A stretch of DNA of 63,974 nt, taken from positions 1 through 63,974 of IMG/VR virus record IMGVR_UViG_3300029319_000033; one strand, given 5' to 3'. Source of the stretch: a virus. Taxonomy: Duplodnaviria; Caudoviricetes. The notes below the pieces were generated by a model. That model was not told where the DNA came from, searched no databases, and saw only the letters and a program-made list of their open reading frames with translations. This document shows positions 1-63,974 of this stretch, piece after piece. Both the position numbers and the translations under genes were made by a program. The first letter of the stretch is position 1; the number at the start of each line of letters is the position of its first letter.

Positions 1-101
1 AACTTAGCTTCTCTATTTTTTCTCCTAGTCTCAGAGGCTTTTCTATAACCTTCTTTTCTTCTAGCATCTTTAGCAGTAGTTTTAATCAATTCGTGTTCGT
101 G
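1..101. repeat. Terminal direct repeat (assembly overlap of a circular or permuted genome), left copy
   Basis: 1-101 matches 63874-63974 at 100/101 positions; the only difference is G99 vs A63972. Confidence 0.97.
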
Positions 102-3100
102 ATTTTCAAGACCCAAATCCCAAGTGCTCCAACCTAAAGTTAATAAAACTCTTTCCCAAGTTTCATAATTTTCTTTTGTTGCAGCTGTTATATTCCTAAT
201 TGTTAGTAATGCTCTATCTGCAGGAATATTAGTAAATGCAGATACACCTTTAGTACCAATTTCATATATAGGGCTATCAAATTTAAACCCTTTTGCTTCT
301 ATAACATCTTTTTCAATTTCACTTGTTTTATAACCACTATAAAGTTTACCAAAAAAAGTTCCTATGGGTGGAGAAATTGAAAGTAAATCATTTTCAATTC
401 TAGCAATGTCTTTAGCAAAAATACTATCACTTTGTTTTTGTTTATAAAGTTCTAGAATAGCATTTTTTAAACCAGCTACAACTGCTCCTGTATAACCAAG
501 ACCACCTCTTAAAAATGAATCTACTATACCATTTGTTGCAAAATCAATTTGTCTTTTTAAAAGCTTTTTTGTTTTCTCTTGTTTTTTTTCATCATCCTCA
601 TCATCACCACCGAGTCCAAGAGTAGCAAATAAAGCAGTTTGCATACCAGTAAAAAGTATGTTTTGTACTACAGCGTAGTAAGCTAATTTAGATAAATTAG
701 TCTTCCTATCGCCTCTATTATTTACAAGATCTAAATATGCTTTTTTAGTTAATCTAGCATACTGCATCGGTGTGTTTGCAAAAGCAAGTAATATTCTACC
801 AAAGTGACTTCTCTGTTGTTGTGATATTTCAGCCGGATCTGAAGACTGCTGAGTTTCTTCAGTTATTTGATCAAAATCTTCAAATGCAGCTTTCTCTGCT
901 TCCTGAACAGTCATCCCCTTCTTTATGTTTGAATTAACTCTATTCCTGTACATAGAAGCTCCTCCAAGAGCTATAGCAAAACTATCAGCTATTTGAGTAA
1001 AGAAAAATCCTTTATTCAATAAAGTTTTTATAACACTTCTAGTTTGATTTACTCCATCTTTCCCTTGAACTGCAGCTGAAATTTCTGCTTCAGCTATATT
1101 TATTTTCGTACCTGCTCTTCTTTGTCTTAACTTATCAGAATTAAACAAAAATGTAAAATCTTTCCAAAATTGTTTTTGATTTGCAAAAGCACGAGCAGCT
1201 TGTACTGGGTTGTTATCACTCCAGTTTAAATAATTAACAGATGAAATAGTTTGTAATATTGCAGATCTTACGTTAAAAAACATAACAGTTGCTGTTGAAT
1301 TATTAAGCCAATCGTACCATTTTTGTTCAACAGATCCCTTTTTTAATGGTCTTCTAAGTACACCACTTTTCATACTGTTTAATGAACCTTCTAAAGCCTC
1401 TCTAAATTTTGGACCATACGTAGCTTCTATTTTATTTAAATTTTCTTCTGAAAAAATTTCATTAGAATTTTCTATAAATTCATTTAAGTATTCTGATCTA
1501 GCATTATCAATGCTATAACTTAAATCACTTACAATAGTGCTACCTTCCCAAAATTCTTGAGGTTCTGGATATTTACCATCAAAACTTTTCATTGTACCTA
1601 AATCATCAGCAAAAGCTAATAATTGTTTGTCACTTTTAACAAACTCCACTAAAGTATCAACTTCTTTTTGAGTTAAATCAAGATCAGAATTTTTAACTCC
1701 TTGCTTGTTCCAAAGATATACTCTTACAGCTGCATCTTTATTAAAATTAGTATTAGGTACATGTTCTCCTGTTAATTTAGATTCAAGTTTAAGTTGATCA
1801 ATATATTTAAAATGTTTCTTTTTTATACCTTTATACTCATCTGTTATTCTTTGCCTTTGAGAATCCATTGCTGAAATACCTCTTTTATAAGGACTCATCA
1901 GGTTATATTCAAAAAAATCTTTATGACGTTCACCCACTTTACCTTTACCTAAAAAAGAATACATGAGACCCATAAAATTATCTGCTGATGGTGGAACAAA
2001 AAACTTATACCTACCCTTTCTTGCACCTTCTCTTGTTGCAGATCTTCTTGAGTATCTTTTAGTGGCTTCAACACCTTGAGATTCTTCTAGTATTTTATTA
2101 AATTCTTCATTAATATTTTTAGAATAATTAACATTTTTTTTGTTGTAATATTTAATATTATCATCTATTGATTTTCCATCCGTAATACTAAGTTTTTTAC
2201 CGCTTGGTTTGCTTTTTGATACAGGTATGGGTTTCCCTGCCTTGGGATCAATTCTTAGCTCCCCCCTTATCCTAAATGTACTTTCTCCAGTTTTAATGTC
2301 ATTTGAATCTTTTATTGCATCAAACTTTGCAGTAACAACAACTTTAACATCTAAATTTTTTTGGTTAATTAATAAAGGAGCATGAAAAATATTTCCTTTA
2401 TCATCATCACCTAAGTAAAAAAGACCAGAATTTGCAACTTCAAGATAGGAATTACCTTTTTCACGATAGTATTTTGCTATTTTACCTAAATTAATATCAT
2501 TACTATTAAATGTTCCACCGATTTTAAAATCTTTTATAACACGATCCATCCAAGCTTCTTTTGTTTTGTCAGAAATACGCTGTTTAAATGCTTTACCATC
2601 TGGACCTTTCTCCTTAATTGTAGATCTTTTAACTGGGTTTCTTCCTAGTGCTATTTCCTGCTTATCTAAAAAATCAAAAAATTTATTTAATTGTGCTGGT
2701 AAAACATTTCTTAAAACTGCTTCAAGAAATTCAAAATTTAATTTTTTATTTGTGAATGTAATTTTCCCCTTACCTTTATTATTTACAAAATCTTCATCCA
2801 CTGATAAAACACTACTACCAAAATCTGCACCAAAATCTTTTTTAACTTCTACACCTACTATAATTGGATCACCTACCTTAATTTCTTCCTTACCTTCAGG
2901 TAATTTTTTATTTAATTCATCTATAGTTTTTCTATCTTTTTCCTGATAAACATGACCCTTATAATGTATTTGAATGTCAGGTCTAGAATCATCATTCATT
3001 GCTGTACCCTTAAGCAATGTTATTTTACCATCTTTAGCGTTGTCTATTCTTATTAAATTAAAAACAGTTATTTCTTGAATAACACCACCAACTCTTTCAT

Positions 3101-6100
3101 TTCTAATTTGATTATATTGTTGTAGTATTTTTAGAATTTTAATAGTTACAGCGTCAGATACCTTCCCTTTTTCTCTTAATTTTTGATATTCTCCTTCTTT
3201 TCCTTCTAAAAGTTCTTGAATTTTTTTTCTAGGATCTTTTTCTTTTTTAACTTTTTTAGTAACTCTTTTTGTAACTTCTAATACTTTATTTAATATATTT
3301 ATTCCATCCCTTTCTTTTAATGTCTGGAATTCTTCATCATTTAAATCAAATTGAATGCCCGGAGCTGTTTCTTTTATTGGGAGAGCAAAATTAACATTAT
3401 TAACATCTCTTTCTATTTCTACGCCCATCTGAGCAATAATACCCTCAGAGACAACTTCATCACTAGCATATTTAGATAAATCAGAATCAGTTAAAACTTT
3501 TGTATAAGCATCAAAAGCTAAAGCAGTACCTATAGAATTAGCTAAAGAATTTTTTCTTTTACCAGAAGCATCTTCAAAAAACTCCAAAAATTGTTTTTCT
3601 GTAGGTGTTTTCTTTTTATATAAATTAGGTGATTGAGTTTCTGTTTTTGCTTTAATAGCACCAATATCTTTTGCTGCTCTAGCTTCTAATGGTGTTAATT
3701 GTTTCTTTATTAGCTCAGTAAATATTGGAGTTTTACTTTTTCTATCAAGAGCAACAAGATCTCTAATAGGTAATTTTTCTACTATATTTACTCTATTTGA
3801 TTTTAAAAAATTAACAAAATTTTCTTTAGCTTTTTTACCTCCAGAAATACCACCACTCATTAGTTTTTTAATATCGACAGAAAATTGAGTTTCAAAGTTT
3901 TTTTGAAGTTTTTTCCAAACACTAGGATTTATTTGACCAGTTGTTTTATTATAATAATTCATAAAATTATCTTCAAAATCTTTAACAACCGAATCAAGTA
4001 TCTTTTTGTAAAGACCAGTTTTTTTGTCGATACCTATACTCTCTCTAAATAATGGCTTTTGTTGTTTAGGTTTTTCCTCTGCAACAACTTCCTCTTCTGC
4101 TACATCAACTCTTTCAGTTAACTCATCTTCAAACTTATCTCTTGTAGCAGCCTCACCTTTTTTATAAACATTTTTTATTTTATTGTCTAGCTGACTATTT
4201 ATCCAACCAGATAAACTATTATTTTTTTCTGGATTAAAATTTCTTATGTGAGGTATTAATTCTTCTGTTGTTGCAGATACAAAATCTTCTTCAGAAAACC
4301 CCGGTTGTCTAAATTTAACTGGAGGTATTTTACTTTTTATTAAACCCTGTAAGTCTTGGTTTGTAAAAATATCACCCAATACTGCATCCCCTTTACCAGC
4401 ATCCCACTCTTGTTTTGTAAGTTTATAGTTTCCATCAATATTTTTTTCACCAACTAAACCATCTATTTTTTCTTGTTTAGATACAACTTCTCTAGAAAAA
4501 TTAATTTGATTTTGAACCTTATTTAGTTGTGATTGAGAGAATGGTTTCTTTTGTTTAAGGAAACTAGATAAGTCTTCTGTAAACTCACCTTTTTCTATAC
4601 TTTTATTATACTCTTTCATGAAGTTATACACTCCCTGACCACTATCAAAAGATATTTTTTTAAAACCTATTGATCTAAGTATTGGTGTAAGTACGTCTCC
4701 TAACTTTGTAAAAATATTTTCTTCAAACTCTATTAAAGATGTACCATCTTCATTTTTAATATTTAAAGCATCAGAAAAATTTGTTAGGTACTCTGTGTAA
4801 TATTGACTAGATCTATTACCTTTAGAATCCACAGAAATATCATAATTTCTTTTTTTCATTAATGTATCAACGATATTCCTTTGTCTTTGAGAAAGCTTTG
4901 ATTGGAATTTTTCTACTAAAATTTTTTGTTTAGCAGCATTCCCAGCATATCTAAAAAGAATACCATGCAATACTTCATGAGAACCCACTGTGTTTTGCAA
5001 ATCAGCAGCCACAGATTTATTAACATAAACTACATTATTTGGTGCATCGTAAAAACCACCAGCGTTTTTTATGTCTGATCTTTCTTGTTTTGAAAGTTTT
5101 ATTTTTTGTTCTTTTGGTAAGGTTTTATTTAATTTATCTAAATCAGCTAATAACTCATCTGCAGTATCAAAAGCCCTAACTTGAGAACCAGACTGTTTAA
5201 TAAATTCAATATCTCTTCTTACTCTTCTTTCTCTAGAAGCCTTTTTAATTGCTGCTCTTTTAGATTTATTATCTTTTACAGCCTTTATTCTTCTGTCAAT
5301 ATCTTTATACTTATCTGTTATTTCTTTTATTTCAGATTTAACTTCTGCTAATTTATTTTTTGAAGATACTGTTTTTTTATTTTCAAGTTTTTTAACTTCT
5401 TTTTCTAATTCAAAAAATCTATCCCTATCTGTCTTATCAATTATCCTATCATCTATCTCTGATTTTATTTCAATATCAGATTGAAGTTCAGATACTCTAG
5501 AGTATAAATCATTATCATTTTTAATTTCAAAGTCTATACTCGCTTTTTCAACATCAGTAATTTTATCAGATTCTAATATTTTTATAATTTCACCTCTAGA
5601 AGCTAATCCACCATTTACTTTATATCTACCTGCTTTAGTGTTTAAAGCACTAAAACCACCCACTACTGCAGTTTTTGGAGCACCTCCTAAACCTGCAATA
5701 CCTTCTATTATTATTTCTTTTGTATCAAGTCCTCTACCTTCTATCGCCTGTGCTCCTGCTTCACCCAAAGATCCCCCCACTCCTTCAACACCAAAAGCGG
5801 CAGCTCCTTTTGCAGCTTTTACACCTATTCTTCCAGTGGCACTAGTTACACCTCTAGTTGCTCTAGCAATAGAGGATATGGCTTTACCACCAACTAAGGT
5901 TGCTGCACCTTCGATAACACCTATAGTTGATCCTGCTGCTATTGACTTCATTTGCACACTTTCAAAAAGATCTTCATCATTTAAAAATTCTTCTATAGTT
6001 TCTGGAGTGACTTCCTTACCGGCATCTCTAATTGCAGCCTGCATATTTTGAGAAAACCTGTTTACAGATTCTGAATAAGCATTAGCTGCAGCAAATCCTC

Positions 6101-6770
6101 CTGAAAGTGCTCCTCCTGCAACAGTCACTGGAGCAAAAATACCTCCTGCGAATCCAGCAGCAGCACCAACACCGGCTCCTCCTGTTGCCGCTGCAAGAGT
6201 TTCAATATTAGATAAACTAGCCACACTTTGAGCCATAACTCCAAGAAATCCATCAGTACCTGTCTCCATTGTAGCTTTGTATGTTGCTTGAATTGCATTA
6301 TCACCTTTTTCTATGTATTTATCATAGGCTTGATTCCACTCTTCCATAGCCTCTATTGGGGCAGCATTATTTATTTTTTGAATAGCTTCAAATGCATTTT
6401 GTATATCTTCTTTAGTAGACTCACCTCCAGACCTCATTATTTGACTAAACTCATCTGTAGTTTCAGCCATTGTTAATCCAACCTTACCTCCTTGTGTGAT
6501 AGCATTAAAAGAGTCAGTAAATTCTGTAAATAAATTAAAACCTTCTTCTTTAGACTTTGATGGTTCAGGTTTTTTTACTTGTTTTTGTGTTTCAGCTATT
6601 TGTAAATCAATAGCTTTCTTCCAAGAAAAAGAATCATCTACAATATTTTTTTCTTGATCTTCGATTTCTTTTTCTTCAATCTCTTGTTCCTGACTGTCTT
6701 GTTCGTAAATTTTTCTTGCTTCAGCTATGGCATTTAACCATGAAGAAGTTTCATCATTTCCATTTGACAT
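1..6770 (-). CDS. Giant putative virion ejection polyprotein, 2287 aa; continues across the join to the stop at 63780. Zincin HExxH, sigma2-like and PD-(D/E)XK modules
   Basis: ATG at 6770 (MSNGNDETSSW...). Hand translation stays open to the window edge and is in frame with the 63780-63962 ORF through the terminal repeat. Motifs: GFYD..HEVLH, NFNPEK..SLSGWI, RPDI..GVEVK. Lies after two other ejection-like genes. Confidence 0.85.
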   Translation of the reverse strand, partial: MSNGNDETSSWLNAIAEARKIYEQDSQEQEIEEKEIEDQEKNIVDDSFSWKKAIDLQIAETQKQVKKPEPSKSKEEGFNLFTEFTDSFNAITQGGKVGLTMAETTDEFSQIMRSGGESTKEDIQNAFEAIQKINNAAPIEAMEEWNQAYDKYIEKGDNAIQATYKATMETGTDGFLGVMAQSVASLSNIETLAAATGGAGVGAAAGFAGGIFAPVTVAGGALSGGFAAANAYSESVNRFSQNMQAAIRDAGKEVTPETIEEFLNDEDLFESVQMKSIAAGSTIGVIEGAATLVGGKAISSIARATRGVTSATGRIGVKAAKGAAAFGVEGVGGSLGEAGAQAIEGRGLDTKEIIIEGIAGLGGAPKTAVVGGFSALNTKAGRYKVNGGLASRGEIIKILESDKITDVEKASIDFEIKNDNDLYSRVSELQSDIEIKSEIDDRIIDKTDRDRFFELEKEVKKLENKKTVSSKNKLAEVKSEIKEITDKYKDIDRRIKAVKDNKSKRAAIKKASRERRVRRDIEFIKQSGSQVRAFDTADELLADLDKLNKTLPKEQKIKLSKQERSDIKNAGGFYDAPNNVVYVNKSVAADLQNTVGSHEVLHGILFRYAGNAAKQKILVEKFQSKLSQRQRNIVDTLMKKRNYDISVDSKGNRSSQYYTEYLTNFSDALNIKNEDGTSLIEFEENIFTKLGDVLTPILRSIGFKKISFDSGQGVYNFMKEYNKSIEKGEFTEDLSSFLKQKKPFSQSQLNKVQNQINFSREVVSKQEKIDGLVGEKNIDGNYKLTKQEWDAGKGDAVLGDIFTNQDLQGLIKSKIPPVKFRQPGFSEEDFVSATTEELIPHIRNFNPEKNNSLSGWINSQLDNKIKNVYKKGEAATRDKFEDELTERVDVAEEEVVAEEKPKQQKPLFRESIGIDKKTGLYKKILDSVVKDFEDNFMNYYNKTTGQINPSVWKKLQKNFETQFSVDIKKLMSGGISGGKKAKENFVNFLKSNRVNIVEKLPIRDLVALDRKSKTPIFTELIKKQLTPLEARAAKDIGAIKAKTETQSPNLYKKKTPTEKQFLEFFEDASGKRKNSLANSIGTALAFDAYTKVLTDSDLSKYASDEVVSEGIIAQMGVEIERDVNNVNFALPIKETAPGIQFDLNDEEFQTLKERDGINILNKVLEVTKRVTKKVKKEKDPRKKIQELLEGKEGEYQKLREKGKVSDAVTIKILKILQQYNQIRNERVGGVIQEITVFNLIRIDNAKDGKITLLKGTAMNDDSRPDIQIHYKGHVYQEKDRKTIDELNKKLPEGKEEIKVGDPIIVGVEVKKDFGADFGSSVLSVDEDFVNNKGKGKITFTNKKLNFEFLEAVLRNVLPAQLNKFFDFLDKQEIALGRNPVKRSTIKEKGPDGKAFKQRISDKTKEAWMDRVIKDFKIGGTFNSNDINLGKIAKYYREKGNSYLEVANSGLFYLGDDDKGNIFHAPLLINQKNLDVKVVVTAKFDAIKDSNDIKTGESTFRIRGELRIDPKAGKPIPVSKSKPSGKKLSITDGKSIDDNIKYYNKKNVNYSKNINEEFNKILEESQGVEATKRYSRRSATREGARKGRYKFFVPPSADNFMGLMYSFLGKGKVGERHKDFFEYNLMSPYKRGISAMDSQRQRITDEYKGIKKKHFKYIDQLKLESKLTGEHVPNTNFNKDAAVRVYLWNKQGVKNSDLDLTQKEVDTLVEFVKSDKQLLAFADDLGTMKSFDGKYPEPQEFWEGSTIVSDLSYSIDNARSEYLNEFIENSNEIFSEENLNKIEATYGPKFREALEGSLNSMKSGVLRRPLKKGSVEQKWYDWLNNSTATVMFFNVRSAILQTISSVNYLNWSDNNPVQAARAFANQKQFWKDFTFLFNSDKLRQRRAGTKINIAEAEISAAVQGKDGVNQTRSVIKTLLNKGFFFTQIADSFAIALGGASMYRNRVNSNIKKGMTVQEAEKAAFEDFDQITEETQQSSDPAEISQQQRSHFGRILLAFANTPMQYARLTKKAYLDLVNNRGDRKTNLSKLAYYAVVQNILFTGMQTALFATLGLGGDDEDDEKKQEKTKKLLKRQIDFATNGIVDSFLRGGLGYTGAVVAGLKNAILELYKQKQSDSIFAKDIARIENDLLSISPPIGTFFGKLYSGYKTSEIEKDVIEAKGFKFDSPIYEIGTKGVSAFTNIPADRALLTIRNITAATKENYETWERVLLTLGWSTWDLGLENHEHELIKTTAKDARRKEGYRKASETRRKNREAK

Positions 6771-6775
6771 AATTG

Positions 6776-8041
6776 TTAATCTATTGGATTAAGATCTACA
6801 TATTTCATTAAAAGAGGTAACTCTTCAAATTTATAATATCTGATAGCTCTCATACCTTCTTTTGCTGCTTGATTTGAAAGTAAAAATGCATCTTGTTTTG
6901 GAACATACTCAACATAATACCCATCATAATATATTTCTTCGTTTAATCTATCACTCAAAGTTTGTTGACCTGTTATGTTTTGCTCTTGTATTTTAGTTTT
7001 TTCTTCATCATCAATATTAGTAAAATCCCGAATAGGATAAAATCTAACTAAATCCTTTTCATTACTTTTCATCCAATTTTGATGTTTACTTGATATTGTA
7101 TTAGGATTTTTTTGATTAAACCCTAAATTAGACTGCTGTATAATGGCTTGTCTATATTTAGCTAATAGTTCATTTTCTAATTCCTCTTTAGCTTGTAAAG
7201 AAATAATTTCATCACTACTATTAATTCTGTTAAATATTTCTTCAGTTCCTTCATATAACGATATGCCTGCAACCAAATCATCTACAGCTAAAGATTTAAG
7301 AACATCTATACCACCTTTTTCTATAGTTTTTTTAATTTGACTCATGGTTAAGTTTACAGTAGCATCACTAAGTTTTTGACCTGAATCAAAAGCTTTCACC
7401 ATTAAACTTTCAACGAACATAGCTTCATCTGCAGCTTTTAGTGAAGGAAGTTTTAAATCTGTCATCTTAAAAAAACCACCTCTACCATCATCAAAAAATA
7501 AATCACCTTGATCGTTTATGATGACATTTAATTTATCTGTAAATAAAGCTCCATTTAAAGCTATATTACCAAGATCATTAGCTTTAGAAAAATTTTTGTT
7601 GGTAAAATTAGTTAAATTATCTTCCTTACTTTGACCAAATAAATTCCATTGAGCTTTTAAATTACTCATTGCTTGTAAGGATTGATTCATTATATTTGTT
7701 TGTTCTTGATATTCATCAGTCCCTGCTTGCATATTTACTCTAGCAGTTACAGCGTCACTATATATTCTTTTTTGTTTAAAAGAAAAGTCTTCTATTGCTG
7801 ATCTGTATATTTCTGGTATATTAGAAATAGCTATACCGGGAGGGAATTGATCTATATATCTAGTTATTTCTCTGTTTATTCTTTCTTCAGTTGCTTTTCT
7901 TTCTAATCTTAGTTTTTCTGCTTCTAATCTTCTTCTTTCAGCAACCTCATTAAAAGGATCAGCTAATTCTTTTCCAAAACTAGGATTTTGATACATCCAA
8001 GCATCTTTTGATGCCCTTATTAAACCTACATCTGCTGCCAT
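6776..8041 (-). CDS. Putative internal virion (ejection) protein, 421 aa
   Basis: Long helical ORF between the pilot-like and giant proteins, as in the usual podovirus three-gene ejection cluster; function inferred from position. Confidence 0.55.
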   Translation of the reverse strand: MAADVGLIRASKDAWMYQNPSFGKELADPFNEVAERRRLEAEKLRLERKATEERINREITRYIDQFPPGIAISNIPEIYRSAIEDFSFKQKRIYSDAVTARVNMQAGTDEYQEQTNIMNQSLQAMSNLKAQWNLFGQSKEDNLTNFTNKNFSKANDLGNIALNGALFTDKLNVIINDQGDLFFDDGRGGFFKMTDLKLPSLKAADEAMFVESLMVKAFDSGQKLSDATVNLTMSQIKKTIEKGGIDVLKSLAVDDLVAGISLYEGTEEIFNRINSSDEIISLQAKEELENELLAKYRQAIIQQSNLGFNQKNPNTISSKHQNWMKSNEKDLVRFYPIRDFTNIDDEEKTKIQEQNITGQQTLSDRLNEEIYYDGYYVEYVPKQDAFLLSNQAAKEGMRAIRYYKFEELPLLMKYVDLNPID

Positions 8042-8076
8042 AATTAAACTCTTTTAAACATTATATTTTTAACTTA

Positions 8077-9015
8077 TTAGACTGGACTTACTGCACCTAG
8101 AATAGTTTTAGCTGCTTCCATACCTGCAGCACCAAATTGACCAACTCCACCTATTATATCTGCTCTACCCAGTGCTCTTGCTTGATCTGCTTGACCCTTC
8201 CTCTGTAAAGATAACCCAAGTAATGTTGCATCTCTATCAAATTCAGCTTGCTGCAGTGCTTGTGCACCTCTAGCCTCAAAAACCTGACCTTGAAAACCCA
8301 TTTCAGCACCAAGTCTTTGATTAGCTTGAGCTTGTTGTGCTGCGAGTAGTTGATTTTGTTGTGCTATATCTACACCAGCCATTTGATTTGAAGCAGCCAT
8401 TTGTGCAGCAAGTATTTGATTTTGTGAACCTTGCTGAATCTCTCTAGCTTGATTTGCCGCTGACTCAGCTGCAGTCATTTGTTGTATTTGTGAGGCTTGT
8501 TGTGCTGCCAGTCTTCTATTTGCTTGTTCTTGTTGACCAATAGAAGCCGCTGCTGCTTGCATGTTTTGACTTTGTTGACCTGCTAATGTCTGTGCTAAAG
8601 CAGCTATACCGCTACTACCTGCTGCACCTCTTGCACCAGCTAAAATATTTGATAACCCTTGTTGTTGTTGTTGAGCTTGAAATTCAGCTGCTCTTTGATC
8701 CACAGTTAAATCTTCAGCTACGTTTTGCATTTGAGATGCAAAATTTTGTGCACCTACTGCTGTATTTTGAAGACCTGCTGCAAAATTAGTTAAATTAGCT
8801 GCTGGATTTGTTAAAGTTGCTGCTGGGGTTGCTAAATTAGCTGCTGGATTTGTAAGATTTGCAAAAGGATTTTGAAACTCAAAACTTTCATACGCCTGCA
8901 TTCTTTGATTAAGAAGATCCGCTGCATCTGATTGTTCTTTTCTTCTTCTTCTACTACCAAAGAGTCCCCCAAGTGTTTGTGCTATTCCTCCGATAAAACT
9001 AGGTCCATTACTCAT
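8077..9015 (-). CDS. Gln/Ala-rich pilot or ejection protein, 312 aa
   Basis: Gly-rich N-terminus (GGIAQTLGGLFG), Q/A coiled coil, 7-aa ANLTNPA repeats. Confidence 0.65.
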   Translation of the reverse strand: MSNGPSFIGGIAQTLGGLFGSRRRRKEQSDAADLLNQRMQAYESFEFQNPFANLTNPAANLATPAATLTNPAANLTNFAAGLQNTAVGAQNFASQMQNVAEDLTVDQRAAEFQAQQQQQGLSNILAGARGAAGSSGIAALAQTLAGQQSQNMQAAAASIGQQEQANRRLAAQQASQIQQMTAAESAANQAREIQQGSQNQILAAQMAASNQMAGVDIAQQNQLLAAQQAQANQRLGAEMGFQGQVFEARGAQALQQAEFDRDATLLGLSLQRKGQADQARALGRADIIGGVGQFGAAGMEAAKTILGAVSPV

Positions 9016-9405: not shown

Positions 9406-12400
9406 TTATAATATATTACTTAATTGAACTTTTATTGTAACTCTAAGTATATCTGTTGAAACCACATCACCATTACATGTTACAGAAAAATCAAAACTAG
9501 CTCTTGTATTTGCAAAACTAGGTAAAAGATCAAAACCAGTTAATTGATTATTAACTTGATCAAATAATTTAACATTACTAATTGTTTGAGCATCAAATCT
9601 TTCACTTGAAGTAATTGATAATGTTACACCATTAACTGTATTACCATCTCCTCTAAAGAAAACGACTCCAGATCCAGATATTATATCATCATCTTCAGCC
9701 CCATTACCAGAACCAATTGTAACAGCCTTCTTAACTCTAACAAAACCACCAGAATTTGAACTTGTAGAATCATACAATCCACTAAGTGTTAAAGAAGTGT
9801 TTGCAGGAACTGAAGGTGCATCAGCCGATGCTATAGAACGTAAAAATAAACTTAATCCTATTTCAGATGTTAAACTTTTAGTACCAAATCTTAAAACATT
9901 TAAAATACCTGTTATGGTATAAGTTTGTGGTGCAAATTTTGTAAATGTTAAAGCGACATCATCAGCAATAGTTTGTGAAGATGACATTACTAAATTTTGT
10001 TGATCAGTTACTGTTATAACACTAACTAATCCTACAATACCTTCACCTGTAATAACATCACCAACTGCAATAGTTCCAGAATTATTATCAACAACTAGGG
10101 CTGTAGATCCAGTAATAGCACCATTTTTATCTGCTGTTCTTGTAGCTGAAACTTCTTTACTTAAAACACCTTTTAAATTAGAATATTCAATTATCCAACT
10201 ATTAGGTGCTGAAAATGTTAAAATATCACCAACTGAAACATTATTTGCTGCTAAAAATATACCTGTTTGATCTCCGTTATTATTTAAACTTATATCAAAA
10301 CTACCTCCAGCATTTTTTATTGCTATTGTAGTCCCTGACGGTAAAGTCCCTCCAGAAACTATACTTGAAGTTCCTCCAGATGCTGCTGTTTGTATAGAAA
10401 AAACTCTAACGCTTTCATTAAATGTTAAAGCACTTGTACTTCCATTACCTGCAACAGAAACCTCTCTTTCAACTGTTGAATAACCAAAATCTTCATCCAA
10501 TATATCTCTAGAAGTAGTTAAATATTGACCACTAGCAGCTGTAATTGTAAATGAAAAATTAACTAAGGCAGACTTTGTTAATTCTTTTGGTTCACTAAAA
10601 GATGTGCCAGTTATAGTAAGATCACTTGTAGAAGTTGGATTTGTACCTGTTATACTAACATTAGGAGATATTGTCCAAGTAACTTCAGCAGTTTGATTAA
10701 TAGATACAGGATTTGTACCATTAAAATCTGTGGCTAAAGCAGTATCTTCTTGAGCCTCAACTTCATAATTAAATGTTCTAAATACAGATGTTGAAGCATA
10801 TTCTACTGGTATAGAATACACACCTGTAGATGGTATAGTTTGTATTAATGGAGAAGTTAATGTTCCAAAAGCACTAAAATTACTACCATCCCAAAATTCT
10901 GAAAAAGTTAGTTCTGTATCATCTGCTATCGTAGTAGAAGATGAAGCTGTGATTGTATTTGTTGAAACACTACTTACTCTTAAACCAGATTGAACATTAC
11001 CGCCTTCAATTCTCATACCTGATAAAACAGCAGCATTTGTGTTGTCTAAAGTTATACTAGCAGAACCACTAACAGCACCATTGACAGTATCCGTAGTAAA
11101 TCTTTTTAGTCTAAACTTAGCTCCTGATCTACCAAATATTCTTATAAATCTAGTTTCTCCTCTAGCACTTACAGGTTTTGTTGACATCTCCATGCCTGTA
11201 ATTTCATCGGCAGCGTCTAAAAATGTTTTTTCTGCTTTAGCTGTTAATAATATCTTGTCTTCTGTAGGGTTGTTTGTACTAAATACATAGTAAACTTTTA
11301 ATGTAACTGATGCAGGGAAAAAAGATAAAGTTGTATTAATAGGTATTGTAGCTGCAGTGGATAAAGTTAAAGTTGTACTACTTATTCCTGATACTGTAGT
11401 AAAAGATGATATTCCTGTTCCACTGACAACCATTCCTGTTGATATTAAAGAGTTAGAAGCACTAAGTGATACTGTTACAGAATTATCTACATCTGCCGCA
11501 ACAGAAGAAGTGGTAGAAACAAAATCATTGCTACTAGTGTATTCACTAAACGTACTTTCATCTTCCTCCAAAACATCTAATGTTGGTGCGGATCTAAACT
11601 CAAAACCAGTATCTGCTGTAAATGTTCTAGATATTATTTCTGTACCAAATCTTAATATAGTGTCATCAGGTATTGTAGCATTTAAATCAGCACCTGTACC
11701 ATCTTTAATATTCAAAGCAGTGCCATTTATTGATTTTACAAGTGCATTATCAGGAACGCCTGACCCTATAATAGCCATATTTTGAAATATTTTATTAGAT
11801 GAAATGATTATTGTAGAATTATCACTTAAACTTTGTGCACTTGATAAAGTTCCTATAAATTGATCACCATCATTAGTTGTAGCAAGTTGACTAGTTTTAT
11901 CAGTTATTTTTGGAGTAAAAGTTAAGTCTGTGTTATCAGATAATGTTACACTTTCAGACAGTGTAAGTTGAGTAACTGAAGCTACATTTGTAACTGTTAT
12001 AAACTTAGATATTCCATCGCCAGTAACAACTGAACCAACAAATATTTCTGACGATCTATTGTCATAATTTACAGTTGTAGAATTATTAACATTTCCATTG
12101 ACTTTAGCTGTAACTATAGCAACATCATTTCCAGTGATTGAATCATCTATAGAAATAATTTGATTATTAGATATATTATCTATATTTAAAGTTGTGCTTG
12201 AACTAGTAGCACCTCGGACTAATGCTGTCTTTTCAGGATGTAAAACTGGTGAGTTATCTGTACTTAATCCATTAACTTTTGCATTTAAATAATAATGCCC
12301 AACACCACTATAACCAACATTTGAAACGGAAGAAGTAGTTGTATTTTTTTCATCTGTACTAAATGTACCTGTTACTGCATACTTTGCTGGCTTTGCTGTT

Positions 12401-40299: not shown

Positions 40300-40557
40300 T
40301 TATTCAACAAGAACTACATCTTGTGATTTAATAATTTTATAAAGGGTGTCTTCATAGCTGATACCATGTCCTGCATGCTTGTCATAGTATACTATGTCTT
40401 TATCTTTGACACCCTCGACCTTACTGCCGCAGCTGATAACCCTTGCTCTAATGTAACGATTATCTAGGTCTGTCTTTTCTGTGAAAATAAGTCCAGCAAT
40501 CTTTTTCTGTTCTTCTTTGATATCACTTACTATCAAATAAAAATTAATTGCCTTCAT
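40300..40557 (-). CDS. groES: Co-chaperonin GroES (cpn10), 85 aa
   Basis: GLIF..ARVISCGSKVEGVKDKDIVYYDKHAG..IIKSQDVV; overlaps the groEL stop. Confidence 0.85.
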   Translation of the reverse strand: MKAINFYLIVSDIKEEQKKIAGLIFTEKTDLDNRYIRARVISCGSKVEGVKDKDIVYYDKHAGHGISYEDTLYKIIKSQDVVLVE

Positions 40558-43409: not shown

Positions 43410-43447
43410 AACTCACCGGTTAAATAATTTTTTGTATAGATAATATA
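43410..43447 (+). promoter_or_regulatory. Early promoter motif, copy 1
   Basis: AACTCACCNNTTAAATAATTT-N7-AGATAATATA; 29/38 positions invariant across three copies. Confidence 0.75.
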
Positions 43448-43494
43448 GGTGTAACAAATAAAAAAAATAAATAAATTTTAAAACTAAACTAACT

Positions 43495-43532
43495 AACTCA
43501 CCCATTAAATAATTTTATAATCAGATAATATA
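43495..43532 (+). promoter_or_regulatory. Early promoter motif, copy 2
   Basis: Same motif, 15 nt upstream of ATG 43548. Confidence 0.75.
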
Positions 43533-43547
43533 TATAAATAAAAAGAT

Positions 43548-43676
43548 ATGGAAAACTTAAGAGAATTATTTGAAAGCATGAACCCAAACTCAATCTTAGC
43601 TATGGAAAAAGCATGTGAAATAATAATTAAAAAAAGACAAGCAAAGCATAAGATACAGGATAAGACCCCTAACTAA
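43548..43676 (+). CDS. Early micro-protein, 42 aa (not in ORF track)
   Basis: MENLRELFESMNPNS...; N-terminus shared with 45026-45208. Confidence 0.55.
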   Translation: MENLRELFESMNPNSILAMEKACEIIIKKRQAKHKIQDKTPN

Positions 43677-43708
43677 TTTTAAACAACAAAACAAAACGTA
43701 CACTTTTA

Positions 43709-43746
43709 AACTCACCTATTAAATAATTTATAATAAAGATAATATA
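43709..43746 (+). promoter_or_regulatory. Early promoter motif, copy 3
   Basis: Same motif, 21 nt upstream of ATG 43768. Confidence 0.75.
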
Positions 43747-52479: not shown

Positions 52480-53099
52480 AAACTTTAAATAGAAATTTAG
52501 ATTATTTGCATCGAAAAAGGTTTAAATATAAAAAAGAACCTACTACAGATGTTCCAACTAAAAAGTATTATTGGGGGTCTTATTATAAAAATGGTACATA
52601 TCAGGATTATAATTTATTTTATGGTAATGCTAAGATAACCACATTTAAAGCATTAGTATGGCATATTGAAGTTTTAAGGTATATAAATTTAGATTGGGAT
52701 AAAGATGACTTTAGGAAAATAATTTACTTTATAGCTGAAATTAAAAATGGTTTTGTTACCTTTGAAATTAACACAAGTTATTTAGATAGATATATAGACA
52801 ATGCGTTGTCTAATGATTTTTCTTACAAACCTATAAACAGAAAAAAAATAATAGTATTTAAAGATGGAACCGGTCTGTCTAGAAAAGAAAAATTAAAAAT
52901 AGTTGGTGAGGTAGTAGGTAGATCTAAGATTGTTGATAATGAAATCATTTATGAATGCATGTTAGAAATCAACAAAGACAAAAGAAAGATAACCATATCT
53001 AATATAGCTAAAATATTAAATTGTTCTAGAATGTCCATATACAGGAATATGGATACTGAGTTGAAGGTTGAGAGGGATATGCTTAATGAAAAAGTATAA
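52470..53099 (+). CDS. HTH DNA-binding protein (regulator or replication initiator), 209 aa
   Basis: C-terminal ITISNIAKILNCSRMSIYRNM helix-turn-helix. Confidence 0.7.
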   Translation: MLHKTLNRNLDYLHRKRFKYKKEPTTDVPTKKYYWGSYYKNGTYQDYNLFYGNAKITTFKALVWHIEVLRYINLDWDKDDFRKIIYFIAEIKNGFVTFEINTSYLDRYIDNALSNDFSYKPINRKKIIVFKDGTGLSRKEKLKIVGEVVGRSKIVDNEIIYECMLEINKDKRKITISNIAKILNCSRMSIYRNMDTELKVERDMLNEKV

Positions 53100-53844
53100 C
53101 GCAAATACATATAGAATATACAAAGAGGACTTAAGTAATAATGTTAGTAGAGTAGACTTTGAAAAGACATACGATGAACTTACAAAAGATGAATTGATAG
53201 TAAGGTTTTTACCTTTAGTTGAAAATATAGCGAAGAAATTTTCAACTGCATCTCAGGCTTCAGGTGTTATGGATATACTAGATCTTATACAGGAGGGTAG
53301 TGTAGGACTTATAAAAGCAATAGAAAGGATAGATTGGAACATATTTAATAAATCTAAGTATAAGGAAAATACCATGAGATCTTTTCTTACAAAAAGAATT
53401 AGAGGTGCAATAAGGAGGGCAATAGATATTAATAGAGCAGACATGAGGATCCCAGAGCATAAGTTGCAAGAGATCCGAAAGAACTTTGGTAAAGATGAGA
53501 AAATGGTGGCTATGTTTTTCAACTCCATATTTTTATCAGTTGATGAATATGAAGATAAAGAAGACATATCTTTAGAGGTAGAGGATAAATCAGAGCCAAA
53601 GAATATGGATTTGTTAAATGTTTACTTATCAGGTTTGTTAAGGAAGCATTTAAACAGTAAAGAATATCAAGTGTTGAGGTTGAGTTATGGTCTTGATTGT
53701 AATAAGCATTCAGCACAAGAGATAGCAGAGGCATTAAATTTGAAAGGATCTAGTGCTTATGTTAAAGTTTCTAAGTTAAAGAAACAAGCGGTTGAAAAGC
53801 TAATACAAAATGTAGATCCTTCACAAGTTCTAGATTACACTTGA
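53068..53844 (+). CDS. Sigma70-family RNA polymerase sigma factor, 258 aa
   Basis: Region 2 FLPLVENIAKKF..DLIQEGSVGLIKAI..IRGAIRRAI..RIPEH; region 4 LNSKEYQVLRLSYGL..QEIAEAL..AVEKL. Confidence 0.9.
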   Translation: MRGICLMKKYNANTYRIYKEDLSNNVSRVDFEKTYDELTKDELIVRFLPLVENIAKKFSTASQASGVMDILDLIQEGSVGLIKAIERIDWNIFNKSKYKENTMRSFLTKRIRGAIRRAIDINRADMRIPEHKLQEIRKNFGKDEKMVAMFFNSIFLSVDEYEDKEDISLEVEDKSEPKNMDLLNVYLSGLLRKHLNSKEYQVLRLSYGLDCNKHSAQEIAEALNLKGSSAYVKVSKLKKQAVEKLIQNVDPSQVLDYT

Positions 53845-63779: not shown

Positions 63780-63974
63780 TTATCTTCTTCTTCTTCTTTT
63801 ATCTTGATCAGAAGATCCTCTTCTTCTATCACCTTTATCCTTATCTTCATCTAATCCTCTTCTCCTATCTTGCAACTTAGCTTCTCTATTTTTTCTCCTA
63901 GTCTCAGAGGCTTTTCTATAACCTTCTTTTCTTCTAGCATCTTTAGCAGTAGTTTTAATCAATTCGTGTTCATG
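63780..63974 (-). CDS. C-terminal end of the giant ejection polyprotein (continuation of 1-6770)
   Basis: In frame through the terminal repeat: ..HEHELIKTTAKDARRKEG..DKRRRRR stop. Confidence 0.88.
   Translation of the reverse strand, partial: HEHELIKTTAKDARRKEGYRKASETRRKNREAKLQDRRRGLDEDKDKGDRRRGSSDQDKRRRRR
63874..63974. repeat. Terminal direct repeat, right copy
   Basis: 100/101 identical to 1-101. Confidence 0.97.

What the first reader, a model, noticed from the sequence alone, without database searches (positions are those of the whole stretch)
4158..4388. Sigma-factor region-2-like domain embedded in the ejected protein
Seen: DAVLGDIFTNQDLQGLIKSKI..GFSEEDFVSATTEELIPHIRNFNPEKNNSLSGWINSQLDNKIKNVYKK. 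By eye this matches sigma70/ECF region 2 (L..LV..IA....EDL.Q....L......FDP.KG..F.TW.......I). Inference: a virion-delivered sigma that redirects host core RNA polymerase to the early promoters, which lack the Bacteroidota TAnnTTTG consensus. That would explain how the separately encoded sigma (53068-53844) first gets expressed. I could not see a clear region-4 HTH, so the domain could instead be an RNA polymerase decoy.
Basis: inference. Interest (0 to 1): 0.88.

Follow-up and report, generated by a model that had tools for sequence, protein, structure and literature searches.

The report
Sigma-like domain in giant phage protein
A 2,287-residue protein that this uncultured marine phage probably carries in its particle contains a real but divergent copy of the part of bacterial sigma factors that grips RNA polymerase, so the phage may seize the host's transcription enzyme as it enters, though packaging, binding and promoter reading are all untested.

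Summary
The quoted peptide is real. It lies on the minus strand, window 4158-4388, and is aa 795-871 of a giant ORF. That ORF runs 6770 to 3 and continues at 63875-63780 through a 101-bp terminal repeat, giving 2287 aa.

It is a divergent sigma-70 domain-2 (sigma2) homologue:
- Pfam Sigma70_r2 matches below threshold, 20.3 bits against a cut-off of 24. It is one of only two places in the genome that match.
- 20 of 40 family members hit the same model.
- A family profile ranks sigma factors top in the PDB.
- Two template-free models, built from different homologue sets, each put about the first 22 structural matches on sigma entries, with Z up to 7.7.
- A complex prediction docks it on the beta-prime clamp-helix region, 0.82 against a best control of 0.00.

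No sigma3 or sigma4 was detected.

The domain sits about 230 aa after a conserved HExxH site. It lies in a roughly 370-aa module bounded by conserved junction motifs. The protein has no cysteine and is encoded at the end of the tail block.

Delivery in the virion, release, RNA polymerase binding and use of the three unique promoter-like repeats at 43410-43746 are inferred.

My four literature searches found no description of this. This scan has noted the same kind of domain before in several other genomes.

The parts
4155..4415 (-). Sigma2-like domain core, aa 786-872. It has four helices (aa 786-803, 808-812, 827-843, 853-871+). The finding's 4158-4388 is aa 795-871.
   Evidence: AF2 model: pLDDT 88, pTM 0.74. 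PF04542 matches aa 826-871. Structural matches are sigma entries.
4416..4481 (-). N-terminal lead of the domain, aa 764-785: a short helix and a hairpin. It is conserved in most homologues (KQExID..G.Y..TK.EWD).
   Evidence: Alignment A1. The model has helix 2-10 and two short strands.
4167..4238 (-). Most conserved stretch, aa 845-868 (FNPEKNNSLSGWINSQLDNKIKNV). By alignment it corresponds to sigma regions 2.3-2.4. It lies outside the predicted beta-prime interface.
   Evidence: Mean top-residue frequency is 0.73 here, against 0.46 for interface residues and 0.47 for the rest. None of the 26 interface residues lies in it.
4059..4154 (-). Acidic, poorly conserved linker, aa 873-904.
   Evidence: pLDDT is below 50 for model residues 110-141. 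The region is gappy in A2.
3417..4049 (-). Helical domain of unknown fold, aa 908-1118, the second half of the module. No sigma3 or sigma4 likeness was detected.
   Evidence: AF2 block pLDDT is 47-92 over these residues, lowest around model 261-290. Only generic helical matches appear, Z <= 5.2. No Pfam HTH, r3 or r4 hit in 13 of 13 members.
4494..4505 (-). Junction motif INFS, aa 756-759, the upstream border of the sigma-like module.
   Evidence: It is one of exactly three matches to [IVL][NK][FY][SA] in the 2256 aa. It lies where conservation rises.
3384..3395 (-). Junction motif VNFA, aa 1126-1129, the downstream border of the module. The homologues carry 'RDPxVKFSK' here.
   Evidence: 54 of 92 homologues have such a motif 260-370 aa after the sigma2 anchor.
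2121..2132 (-). Third junction motif VNYS, aa 1547-1550, at the start of the conserved C-terminal module.
   Evidence: Coverage jumps from 33 to 95 of 99 homologues at aa about 1550.
4965..4979 (-). HEVLH zincin-type site, aa 598-602.
   Evidence: It is the only HExxH in the protein. 78 of 90 homologues have HExxH 100-450 aa before the sigma2 anchor, and most lie at 195-260 aa. The Pfam DUF6782 metallopeptidase match is weak, E 0.1.
3..6770 (-). Giant ORF, aa 1-2256. It has no cysteine and is the last gene of the minus-strand virion/tail block.
   Evidence: The neighbouring ORF 9406-18042 is a crAss-type muzzle protein (PF25729 E 8e-8).
63780..63875 (-). The last 31 codons and the stop of the giant ORF, reached through the 101-bp terminal repeat. 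The tail is very basic.
43410..43746 (+). Three promoter-like repeats, AACTCACC-N2-TTAAATAATTT-N7-AGATAATATA, at 43410, 43495 and 43709. They are the candidate target. The link to the domain is inferred only.
   Evidence: There are 3 exact copies, and 0 of 100 shuffles reach 3. No further copy appears even with 3 mismatches.
53068..53844 (+). Stand-alone phage sigma factor gene, given for comparison. It is not a recent duplicate of the domain.
   Evidence: Sigma70_r2 E 2.5e-8 and r4 E 8e-4. hhalign of its family against A1 or A2 gives probability 0.1.

Best explanation
Aa about 786-872 of the 2287-aa giant protein are a true but divergent homologue of domain 2 of sigma-70-family factors. That domain covers regions 1.2/2.1-2.4, the part that grips the beta-prime clamp helices and reads the -10 element.

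The domain is the first half of a roughly 370-aa module (aa about 760-1129). The module lies about 230 aa after a conserved HExxH site and between conserved junction motifs. The protein has the build of the 'polyvalent' proteins that phages pack into the particle.

I infer the following chain:
1. The protein is packed and ejected with the DNA.
2. The module is cut free at the junction motifs.
3. Its sigma2 domain docks on the clamp helices of the host (probably Flavobacteriia) core RNA polymerase.
4. The polymerase is thereby captured at entry. The most likely purpose is to start transcription at the three unique promoter-like repeats that head the plus-strand block, in the manner of the sigma2-only factor gp55 of T4.

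My odds for each step: sigma2 homology 0.85-0.9; packaging and ejection 0.7; beta-prime binding 0.6; promoter-specific initiation 0.3. The confidence given below is for the chain up to 'captures host polymerase on entry'.
For: Shown here by sequence:
- PF04542 matches at only two places in the genome, and this is one of them.
- 20 of 40 members and 7 of 13 members of a second set hit Sigma70_r2. No other family comes close.
- The A1 profile against the PDB gives 7 hits at E <= 1. The top three are sigma factors: 8b3z_A E 0.0036, 6pfv_A 0.15, 6pfj_A 0.17.

Shown here by fold:
- The AF2 model has pLDDT 88.
- VIA-align against 48,161 chains: the first 23 rows are all sigma entries by title, Z 7.1-5.3. 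Examples are 9m84_F (rmsd 3.9 A over 96 residues) and 8b3z_A (Z 6.2, rmsd 3.5 A over 80).
- A second model from 12 other homologues puts the first 22 rows on sigma entries. All of them align to model residues 1-111 except rank 6 (9m84_F, range 8-341, rmsd 8.1 A). The best is 7d7d_F, Z 7.7, rmsd 3.3 A over 93 residues.
- Foldseek against the PDB: 43 of the 44 rows shown are sigma entries.
- BFVD: 22 of 33 named rows are phage sigma factors.

Binding, predicted only. With F. johnsoniae beta-prime 1-450 the score is 0.82, and the best of 3 controls is 0.00. That mark was reached by 58 of 80 solved complexes and by 2 of 110 mismatched pairs. The runs agree in at least 56% of contacts, and the partner's pLDDT is at least 74. 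The interface joins beta-prime 273-319 to aa 795-803, 818-840 and 873-882.

Context:
- HExxH is conserved in 78 of 90 homologues.
- The three junction motifs fall on the borders of the conservation blocks.
- There are 0 Cys in 2256 aa, against 0.56% in 19 other ORFs.
- The gene follows the muzzle and tail genes.
- The most conserved stretch, aa 845-868, is the counterpart of regions 2.3-2.4 and lies outside the predicted beta-prime interface. This suggests a second constrained surface, as on a DNA-reading sigma.
- T4 gp55 shows that a sigma2-only factor can bind the clamp helices and read a -10-like element (PMC7892883, passages read).
Against: - The Pfam score of this copy is below the gathering cut-off (14.8-20.3 bits against 24).
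- No Foldseek match reaches E 0.001.
- All VIA Z values are below 8. The tool warns that helical models can reach such values by chance.
- hhalign against the phage's own sigma family finds nothing, probability 0.1. That profile is very narrow, Neff 1.7.
- The predicted beta-prime-contacting residues are no more conserved than the rest, 0.46 against 0.47.
- The complex pass may come from the model's memory of solved sigma/beta-prime complexes. It also used a stand-in host.
- No sigma4, or any substitute for it, was recognised.
- Nothing shows that the protein is in the particle, that it is cleaved, or that the 43410-43746 repeats are promoters at all.
- The three nearest complete or cultured relatives by TerL (MW202828, elemoE, phi38:1) have neither this domain nor any sigma match. 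The strategy, if real, is therefore lineage-specific.
Confidence: 0.42

Rival explanations
1. RNA polymerase decoy or host shut-off module. The delivered sigma2-like domain occupies the beta-prime clamp helices and keeps host sigma factors off core enzyme. It may also hold the polymerase at the entry site. It does not itself direct initiation. Phage genes would then be read by another route, for example residual holoenzyme followed by the phage's own sigma.
For: The docking prediction is the same as for the main reading. No sigma4-like DNA-binding part was found. A sigma2 domain alone is usually not enough for promoter-specific initiation; this is established knowledge of sigma-70 factors, recalled.
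Against: The strongest conservation lies on the stretch that corresponds to the DNA-reading regions 2.3-2.4 and not on the predicted polymerase-contacting face. A pure blocker would not need that. T4 gp55 shows that sigma2-only factors can initiate. A second conserved domain of about 210 aa always follows in the homologues that cover the region.
Confidence: 0.23
2. Fold likeness without a polymerase role. The segment is an old, drifted sigma2-derived or merely sigma2-like helical bundle. It now serves as a structural or packing element of the giant protein, or binds some other partner.
For: All sequence scores are sub-threshold for this copy. Z values are below 8. Interface residues are not specially conserved. 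Complex predictors can pass by likeness alone (caveat).
Against: In two independent models the unbiased search of 48,161 chains returns sigma factors and essentially nothing else at the top. Sequence and fold evidence point to the same family. The motif PHIRNFNPE.N.SLSGWINSQL.NK is nearly invariant across 291 clusters at 50% identity. That argues for a specific, constrained function.
Confidence: 0.15
3. The giant protein is not packaged. It would be a late intracellular polyprotein whose sigma-like module acts during the late phase, for example as a late sigma like gp55, and is not delivered at entry.
For: No proteomic evidence for packaging exists. The gene is transcribed with the late structural block (position).
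Against: Several features fit proteins that travel through the tail:
- its position directly after the muzzle and tail genes;
- its giant size;
- the conserved zincin site typical of packaged polyvalent proteins (PMC5512222, passages read);
- the total lack of cysteine;
- the hydrophobic conserved C-terminal module.

In addition, the three repeats that look like its possible targets head the non-structural block, not the late block.
Confidence: 0.15

Closest known systems
Sigma-70 family domain sigma2 (regions 1.2/2.1-2.4; Pfam PF04542), as in ECF and group-3 factors (SigE N-terminal domain 8b3z, ShbA 9m84, SigH, SigW, sigma28)
   Same: The order of helices is the same. The sequence pattern is the same: E-D-F-V..T..ELI..I..FNPE....SLSGWI..Q..NK against ED-L-VQE.f..a...FDp..g.sF.tWl.rIa.N (the sigma consensus is recalled). 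The Pfam match covers profile positions 21-67. Structural superposition gives Z 5.3-7.7. Docking on the beta-prime clamp-helix region is predicted.
   Different: It is embedded at aa about 786-872 of a 2287-aa protein instead of opening a free 20-70 kDa factor. It scores below Pfam's cut-off. No sigma3 or sigma4 follows; instead there is an acidic linker and an unrecognised helical domain of about 210 aa.
Bacteriophage T4 gp55 (late promoter specificity factor; PDB 7D7C/7D7D)
   Same: gp55 is a phage factor that consists essentially of a sigmaR2 homology domain without sigma4. It binds the clamp helices through acidic residues on one helix and reads a -10-like element (PMC7892883, passages). 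That chain F is gp55 is my inference from the entry title and the chain's size. The helix aa 827-843 also carries acidic residues (E827, E828, D829, E836, E837) in the predicted interface.
   Different: gp55 is a free 185-aa protein (length recalled) made after infection. It works with gp33 and the gp45 sliding clamp. Here the domain is part of a giant, probably packaged protein. No helix-loop-helix or clamp-binding motif was looked for, and no sequence kinship to gp55 was tested.
Polyvalent proteins and virion RNA polymerases of N4-like and crAss-like phages (Iyer et al. 2017, PMC5512222; N4 gp50; phi14:2 gp66, recalled)
   Same: These are giant multidomain proteins encoded with the virion genes. 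They carry a zincin-like metallopeptidase thought to process the polypeptide and to be delivered with the DNA to 'jump-start transcription' (abstract and passages). The neighbour here is a crAss-type muzzle protein. The C-terminal module lies near Atlas clusters carrying LPD39 (28% of members) or LPD38; this is a lead only.
   Different: Those proteins bring a complete RNA polymerase. This one brings only a sigma-type polymerase-binding domain, so it would have to use the host's core enzyme. The word 'sigma' does not occur in the main text of the 2017 survey. Its supplementary domain tables could not be seen.
Free phage-encoded sigma factors (phiEco32 gp36, SPO1 gp28/gp34, and the window's own gene at 53068-53844)
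   Same: They redirect host core RNA polymerase to phage promoters.
   Different: They are synthesised after entry and have both sigma2 and sigma4. For SU10, a phiEco32 relative, the sigma factor gave one peptide in a PEG-precipitated, unpurified phage preparation. That is not evidence of packaging (PMC4281155, passages).

Membership tests
Sigma-70 family, domain sigma2 (Pfam PF04542 Sigma70_r2) | Sequence match to the family model at or above the curated cut-off (24 bits) | tested here: not met
   This copy gives 14.8 bits in the whole protein and 20.3 bits as a fragment or in the six-frame scan. 20 of 40 and 7 of 13 relatives match at E <= 0.1, best 1.2e-5 to 1.3e-5. The bit scores of those relatives were not shown.
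Sigma-70 family, domain sigma2 (Pfam PF04542 Sigma70_r2) | The sigma2 helical fold (helices of regions 1.2/2.1, 2.2, 2.3-2.4 in order) | tested here: met
   Two template-free models were made (pLDDT 88; domain blocks 55-90 in the second). The first 23 and the first 22 rows of a search over 48,161 chains are sigma entries, Z 5.3-7.7. Each Z alone is below the tool's caution line of 8.
Sigma-70 family, domain sigma2 (Pfam PF04542 Sigma70_r2) | Binding of the beta-prime clamp helices of core RNA polymerase | tested here: inconclusive
   Prediction only. The score is 0.82 against a best control of 0.00; the mark was reached by 58 of 80 solved and 2 of 110 mismatched pairs. Contacts agree in at least 56% between runs, and partner pLDDT is at least 74. 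The pass may reflect likeness to solved complexes, and the beta-prime came from a stand-in host.
Sigma-70 family, domain sigma2 (Pfam PF04542 Sigma70_r2) | Recognition and melting of a -10 promoter element | not testable with these tools
   Only indirect evidence exists. The counterpart of regions 2.3-2.4 (aa 845-868) is the most conserved stretch (0.73) and is free of predicted beta-prime contacts.
ECF (group 4) sigma factors | Two-domain build: sigma2 plus sigma4 (HTH reading the -35 element) | tested here: inconclusive
   No Sigma70_r4, r4_2 or other HTH family matched in the whole protein at E <= 1 or in any of 13 module sequences. Structural rows for aa 908-1118 are generic helical proteins, Z <= 5.2. 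A very divergent sigma4 cannot be excluded.
T4 gp55-type sigma2-only factors | A sigmaR2 homology domain acting without sigma4, plus a helix-loop-helix and a sliding-clamp-binding motif | tested here: inconclusive
   The fold match to 7d7d_F is Z 7.7 and 6.2. The helix-loop-helix, the clamp-binding motif and sequence kinship were not examined. I treat it as 'works like', not as a member.
Phage polyvalent (packaged multidomain) proteins, Iyer et al. 2017 | Giant multidomain polypeptide with a zincin-like metallopeptidase and exchangeable effector domains | tested here: met
   The protein has 2287 aa. HExxH is conserved in 78 of 90 homologues. A variable block at aa about 1130-1546 lies between conserved blocks. 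Some homologues carry other precomputed Pfam domains (PF06414/PF13671 in P0080, PF19067 in P0074 and P0087). The metallopeptidase fold itself was not tested; the only hit is DUF6782 at E 0.1.
Phage polyvalent (packaged multidomain) proteins, Iyer et al. 2017 | Packaging in the particle and delivery into the host | not testable with these tools
   This is inferred from gene position after the muzzle and tail genes, from 0 Cys in 2256 aa and from the hydrophobic conserved C-terminal module.

The most novel reading that the evidence does not exclude
This lineage of marine Flavobacteriia podophages has replaced the injected RNA polymerase of N4-type and crAss-type phages with an injected minimal sigma factor.

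On this reading a roughly 370-aa module is cut out of the ejected polyvalent protein by its own zincin. The module consists of a gp55-like sigma2 domain plus a new helical domain that stands in for sigma4. It loads onto host core RNA polymerase and fires the three dedicated immediate-early promoters at 43410-43746 before any phage gene is expressed.
Probability: 0.25. Interest if true: 0.9.

Novelty: new variant of a known kind. Interest (0 to 1): 0.7.

Why it matters
Phages are known to take over transcription in two ways. They inject a whole RNA polymerase (N4-like and crAss-like phages), or they make sigma factors and modifiers after entry.

A sigma-type polymerase-binding domain that travels inside the particle would be a third route. 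It would solve the problem of how first transcription starts for promoters that the host holoenzyme does not read.

The family is large: 291 clusters at 50% identity, almost all in giant proteins. It belongs to abundant marine phages: more than 8000 relatives of the phage's own sigma gene were scored. It would also add a sigma2 domain to the catalogue of polyvalent-protein modules, and it would give a compact, conserved ligand of the beta-prime clamp helices for study.

Tried and rejected
- Recent copy of the phage's own sigma: rejected. hhalign of A1 or A2 against the own-sigma family A3 gives probability 0.1. A3 is a narrow profile, Neff 1.7, so this is no test of sigma kinship in general.
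- Sigma3 or sigma4 after the domain: not found. This holds for Pfam on the whole protein, Pfam on 13 module sequences, a PDB profile search with A2, which gave only dynamin and BAR hits at E 0.18-0.33, Foldseek and VIA-align. Foldseek did align full-length SigH, WhiG and FliA over 243-310 columns, but with TM 0.15-0.31 and probability <= 0.54. I count that as nothing.
- Presence in cultured phages: none. tblastn of the domain and of the C-terminal module against 50,697 phage records gave no match, nor did megablast of the gene. A profile search of MW202828, elemoE and phi38:1 found 0 of 3.
- Presence in cellular genomes: a close-relative scan of genome contigs gave 265 pattern hits, none confirmed.
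- Stand-alone forms of the module: I read 6 of the shorter proteins. All look cut off or chimeric at an end, so no free form was seen. The 'shorter' option of the search for homologous proteins was not run.
- The promoter repeats in other phages: the 21-base pattern has one exact match in IMG/VR, on a 5-kb contig. The 28-base pattern gave six single matches on contigs I did not examine further and take for chance. So no covariation test between the domain and the promoters was possible.
- My first wrap-around join ignored the 101-bp terminal repeat and gave a false stop 5 codons on. Searches corrected it.
- My first promoter pattern used N3 instead of N2 and found nothing relevant.
- Co-occurrence with a stand-alone sigma in relatives: of 5 IMG/VR contigs carrying the giant gene (39-86% complete), 1 shows a separate sigma frame, 1 shows a weak hit inside the giant frame, and 3 show nothing. 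The contigs are too fragmentary to use.
Full report
WHAT IS THERE

The finding's coordinates are right, but the gene is on the minus strand.
- Window 4158-4388(-) translates to the quoted 77 residues. The plus strand has stops.
- They are aa 795-871 of the ORF 3..6770(-), 2256 aa, open at the window edge.
- The window is a whole IMG/VR record of 63,974 bases. Its first 101 bases recur at its end with one mismatch.
- The genome is therefore circular or terminally redundant. The ORF runs on at 63875-63780 for 31 more, very basic, residues, giving 2287 aa.
- My first naive join was wrong because it ignored this repeat.

THE PHAGE

- The minus-strand block holds TerL (phrog_6681, E 2e-166), the portal (phrog_6547, E 5e-157), virion proteins, a tail fibre and a 2878-aa protein. 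That protein carries the crAss muzzle C-terminal domain (PF25729, E 8e-8; phrog_14478, E 1e-130). The giant ORF is the last gene of this block.
- The plus-strand block holds a primase-helicase, both ribonucleotide reductase subunits, a PD-(D/E)XK-like protein and a stand-alone sigma factor at 53068-53844 (Sigma70_r2 E 2.5e-8, r4 E 8e-4, phrog_351 E 2.6e-23).
- TerL finds 87 phage records: Flavobacterium 68, Cellulophaga 15, Tenacibaculum 2, Maribacter 1 and one uncultured. The best cultured match has 44.7% identity. The host is therefore probably a marine member of the Flavobacteriia.

IS THE SEGMENT A SIGMA DOMAIN? SEQUENCE

- Pfam Sigma70_r2 matches aa 826-871 to profile positions 22-67 of 71. 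The whole protein scores 14.8 bits (E 0.025) and the fragment 20.3 bits (E 4.7e-4). Both are below the cut-off of 24.
- A six-frame scan of the record with the same model rings at only two places: the real sigma gene and this segment (20.3 bits, E 2.7e-5 per genome).
- A search with aa 700-1130 found 99 relatives at E <= 0.001 among 6572 candidates. All are proteins of 1434-3384 aa from metagenomes.
- In 92 of them the motif (P)GFS.EDFV..T..ELIPHIRNFNPE.N.SLSGWINSQL.NK.GNVFKKGEA.T is nearly invariant.
- From 40 diverse members I built A1. 20 of the 40 hit Sigma70_r2 at E <= 0.1, best 1.3e-5. The next family is hit by 3.
- The A1 profile against all PDB sequences gives 7 hits at E <= 1. The first three are sigma factors: 8b3z_A, the SigE N-terminal domain, E 0.0036, and two WhiG entries at 0.15 and 0.17. 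The other four are unrelated.
- The single sequence also has 8b3z_A as its best hit, at E 0.15.
- Against this, hhalign of A1 with the family of the phage's own sigma finds nothing (probability 0.1). That profile is narrow (Neff 1.7), and the own sigma has an unusual region 2. This shows only that the domain is not a recent copy of that gene.

IS THE SEGMENT A SIGMA DOMAIN? FOLD

- AlphaFold2 on A1, without templates, gives a confident model: pLDDT 88, pTM 0.74. Its helices are at aa 765-773, 786-803, 808-812, 827-843 and 853-887.
- Foldseek against the PDB has no match at E <= 0.001; the best is 0.097. But 43 of the 44 rows shown are sigma factors or initiation complexes matched through their sigma chain. 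I judge that by the entry titles. The exception is pyocin S5 at rank 32.
- VIA-align does not lean on Foldseek. Over 48,161 representative chains it puts sigma entries in all of the first 23 rows. These include ShbA (Z 7.1), ECF RpoE (6.6), SigI6, SigB, SigE, the T4 late complex 7d7d_F (6.2), SigH, SigW, SigK, sigma28, sigma32, BldN, sigmaE region 2, RpoS, SigR, pro-sigmaK, CnrH, SigA domain 2 and sigma70. The first unrelated row is rank 24.
- A second model came from a different alignment, A2: aa 764-1135 with 12 other homologues (pLDDT 72). It gives sigma entries in the first 22 rows. All align to model residues 1-111 except rank 6 (9m84_F, range 8-341, rmsd 8.1 A). The best is 7d7d_F, Z 7.7, rmsd 3.3 A over 93 residues.
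- In the viral library, 22 of the 33 named rows among the top 50 are phage sigma factors, one of them a gp55.
- Each single Z is below the tool's caution line of 8. The weight lies in the uniformity of the lists and in their agreement with the sequence signal.
- I put sigma2 homology at 0.85-0.9.

WHAT SURROUNDS THE DOMAIN

- The coverage map of the 99 relatives shows conserved blocks at aa about 550-1100 and about 1550-2230, with a variable block between them.
- The pattern [IVL][NK][FY][SA] occurs exactly three times in the protein, at aa 756 (INFS), 1126 (VNFA) and 1547 (VNYS). Those are the borders of the blocks.
  - The count alone is not significant: shuffles give a mean of 0.88, and 6.7% of 1000 reach 3.
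  - The placement is what counts. 54 of 92 homologues have such a motif 260-370 aa after the sigma2 anchor, where A2 shows a conserved 'RDPxVKFSK'.
- An HExxH site (HEVLH, aa 598-602) is the only one in the protein. 78 of 90 homologues have one 100-450 aa before the anchor, mostly at 195-260 aa; 2 N-truncated homologues were skipped.
- This fits the 'polyvalent proteins' of phages. For those, processing by zincin-like peptidases and a role in jump-starting transcription have been proposed, and N4-type virion RNA polymerases are always fused to such a peptidase (PMC5512222, abstract and passages).
- After the sigma2 domain come an acidic, disordered linker (aa 873-904) and a helical domain (aa 908-1118). 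That domain matches nothing specific: Z <= 5.2, no Pfam family in 13 of 13 members, and no PDB profile hit of use. No sigma3 or sigma4 was seen.
- The protein has no cysteine in 2256 aa, nor have the two ORFs before it. The 19 other ORFs pool to 0.56%.
- The C-terminal module is hydrophobic in places. It lies near Atlas clusters of which 28% carry LPD39; this is a lead only.

DOES IT BIND RNA POLYMERASE?

- One complex job was run: A1 against residues 1-450 of Flavobacterium johnsoniae beta-prime. It scored 0.82 (runs 0.82, 0.83, 0.76). The best of three controls was 0.00.
- The mark was reached by 58 of 80 solved complexes and by 2 of 110 mismatched pairs. The runs agree in at least 56% of contacts, and the partner's pLDDT is at least 74.
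- The interface joins beta-prime 273-319 with aa 795-803, 818-840 and 873-882. By position, beta-prime 273-319 is the clamp-helix region; the E. coli numbering of about 260-309 is recalled.
- The helix aa 827-843 carries E828, D829 and E836 in the interface. This recalls gp55, in which three acidic residues of one helix meet the basic groove of the clamp helices (PMC7892883, passages).
- Because sigma/beta-prime complexes are solved in numbers, the pass may show likeness only. The beta-prime also came from a stand-in host.
- The contacting residues are no better conserved than the rest (0.46 against 0.47). The counterpart of regions 2.3-2.4 (aa 845-868) is the most conserved stretch (0.73) and holds none of the 26 interface residues.
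- I read this as a second constrained surface, which a DNA-reading sigma would have and a mere blocker would not need. This is inference.

POSSIBLE TARGET

- At the strand switch, three repeats AACTCACC-N2-TTAAATAATTT-N7-AGATAATATA stand at 43410, 43495 and 43709 on the plus strand.
- There are three exact copies, and none of 100 shuffles reaches three. No fourth copy exists in the genome even with 3 mismatches.
- They do not contain the Bacteroidota -7 motif as I recall it. That is my reading against a recalled consensus.
- That they are promoters, and that the module reads them, is unproven.
- I could not test covariation. The pattern has one exact match elsewhere in IMG/VR, and a shorter one has only scattered single matches.

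SPREAD

- The A1 profile finds 291 clusters at 50% identity at E <= 0.001, of which 186 are at <= 1e-10. In the 150 listed, the domain sits at about aa 600-1900 of proteins mostly 2000-3600 aa long.
- The shorter proteins that I read, 6 of them, look truncated or chimeric.
- No cultured phage record has the domain. The close-relative scan found no cellular genome that has it.
- The three nearest records by TerL have no sigma match at all.

IN PRINT

- Four searches gave no paper that describes a sigma-type domain in a virion or ejected protein.
- The 2017 polyvalent-protein survey does not use the word sigma in its main text.
- The 2021 jumbo-phage survey treats sigma factors and polyvalent proteins separately (passages).
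- The SU10 paper reports one peptide of a free sigma factor in an unpurified preparation.

THIS SCAN

The same kind of domain has been noted and followed up before in other genomes, with the same verdict: domain real, function unproven. For one related case a later check put the bold reading at 10 in 100.

VERDICT

The best reading is a sigma2-type polymerase-binding module of a packaged polyvalent protein that captures host core enzyme on entry. A gp55-like promoter-reading role is the more interesting and less certain half. It is a new variant of known kinds (phage sigma factors and injected polyvalent proteins).

Noticed in passing
window 1-101 and 63874-63974: A 101-bp direct terminal repeat with one mismatch. 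The record, classed 'linear', is therefore circular or terminally redundant, and genes cross the join.
   Followed up: yes
window 2121-2132, 3384-3395, 4494-4505 (-): Three [IVL][NK][FY][SA] motifs fall exactly on the borders of the conserved and variable blocks of the giant protein. They are candidate protease cleavage sites, and homologues keep 'RDPxVKFSK' at the second.
   Followed up: partly
window 3-9015 (-): The giant protein (2256 aa) and the two ORFs before it (421 and 312 aa) have no cysteine at all. The non-structural proteins have 0.8-1.8%.
   Followed up: partly
window 2133-3383 (-), aa about 1130-1546: A variable block lies between the conserved modules. Only 7-16 of 99 homologues align here. 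I did not test that.
   Followed up: no
window 3-2120 and 63780-63875 (-): The conserved C-terminal module of about 740 aa has hydrophobic stretches and an Arg-rich tail. Its nearest Atlas clusters are unnamed viral ones. The nearest named ones carry LPD39 (28% of members) or LPD38.
   Followed up: partly
homologues P0080, P0074, P0087: Some giant homologues carry other precomputed Pfam domains (PF06414 and PF13671 kinase-like; PF19067). This fits exchangeable effector modules.
   Followed up: no
P0235, P0327: Two short database 'homologues' end in peptides that look like translated sequencing-adapter read-through (pattern recalled). These gene calls are assembly artefacts, not free forms of the module.
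   Followed up: no
window 53068-53844 (+): The stand-alone sigma factor has more than 8000 scored relatives. The best 120 are 71-98% identical (P0176, a 211-aa fragment, is the 98% one) and mostly 250-252 aa long. This marks a very abundant marine phage group. The real start is probably a few codons after the TTG at 53068.
   Followed up: partly
window 40544-42109 (-) and 51353-52435 (+): There is a phage-encoded GroEL (phrog_5725, E 1e-132) and a DUF4915 protein (E 5.5e-96).
   Followed up: no
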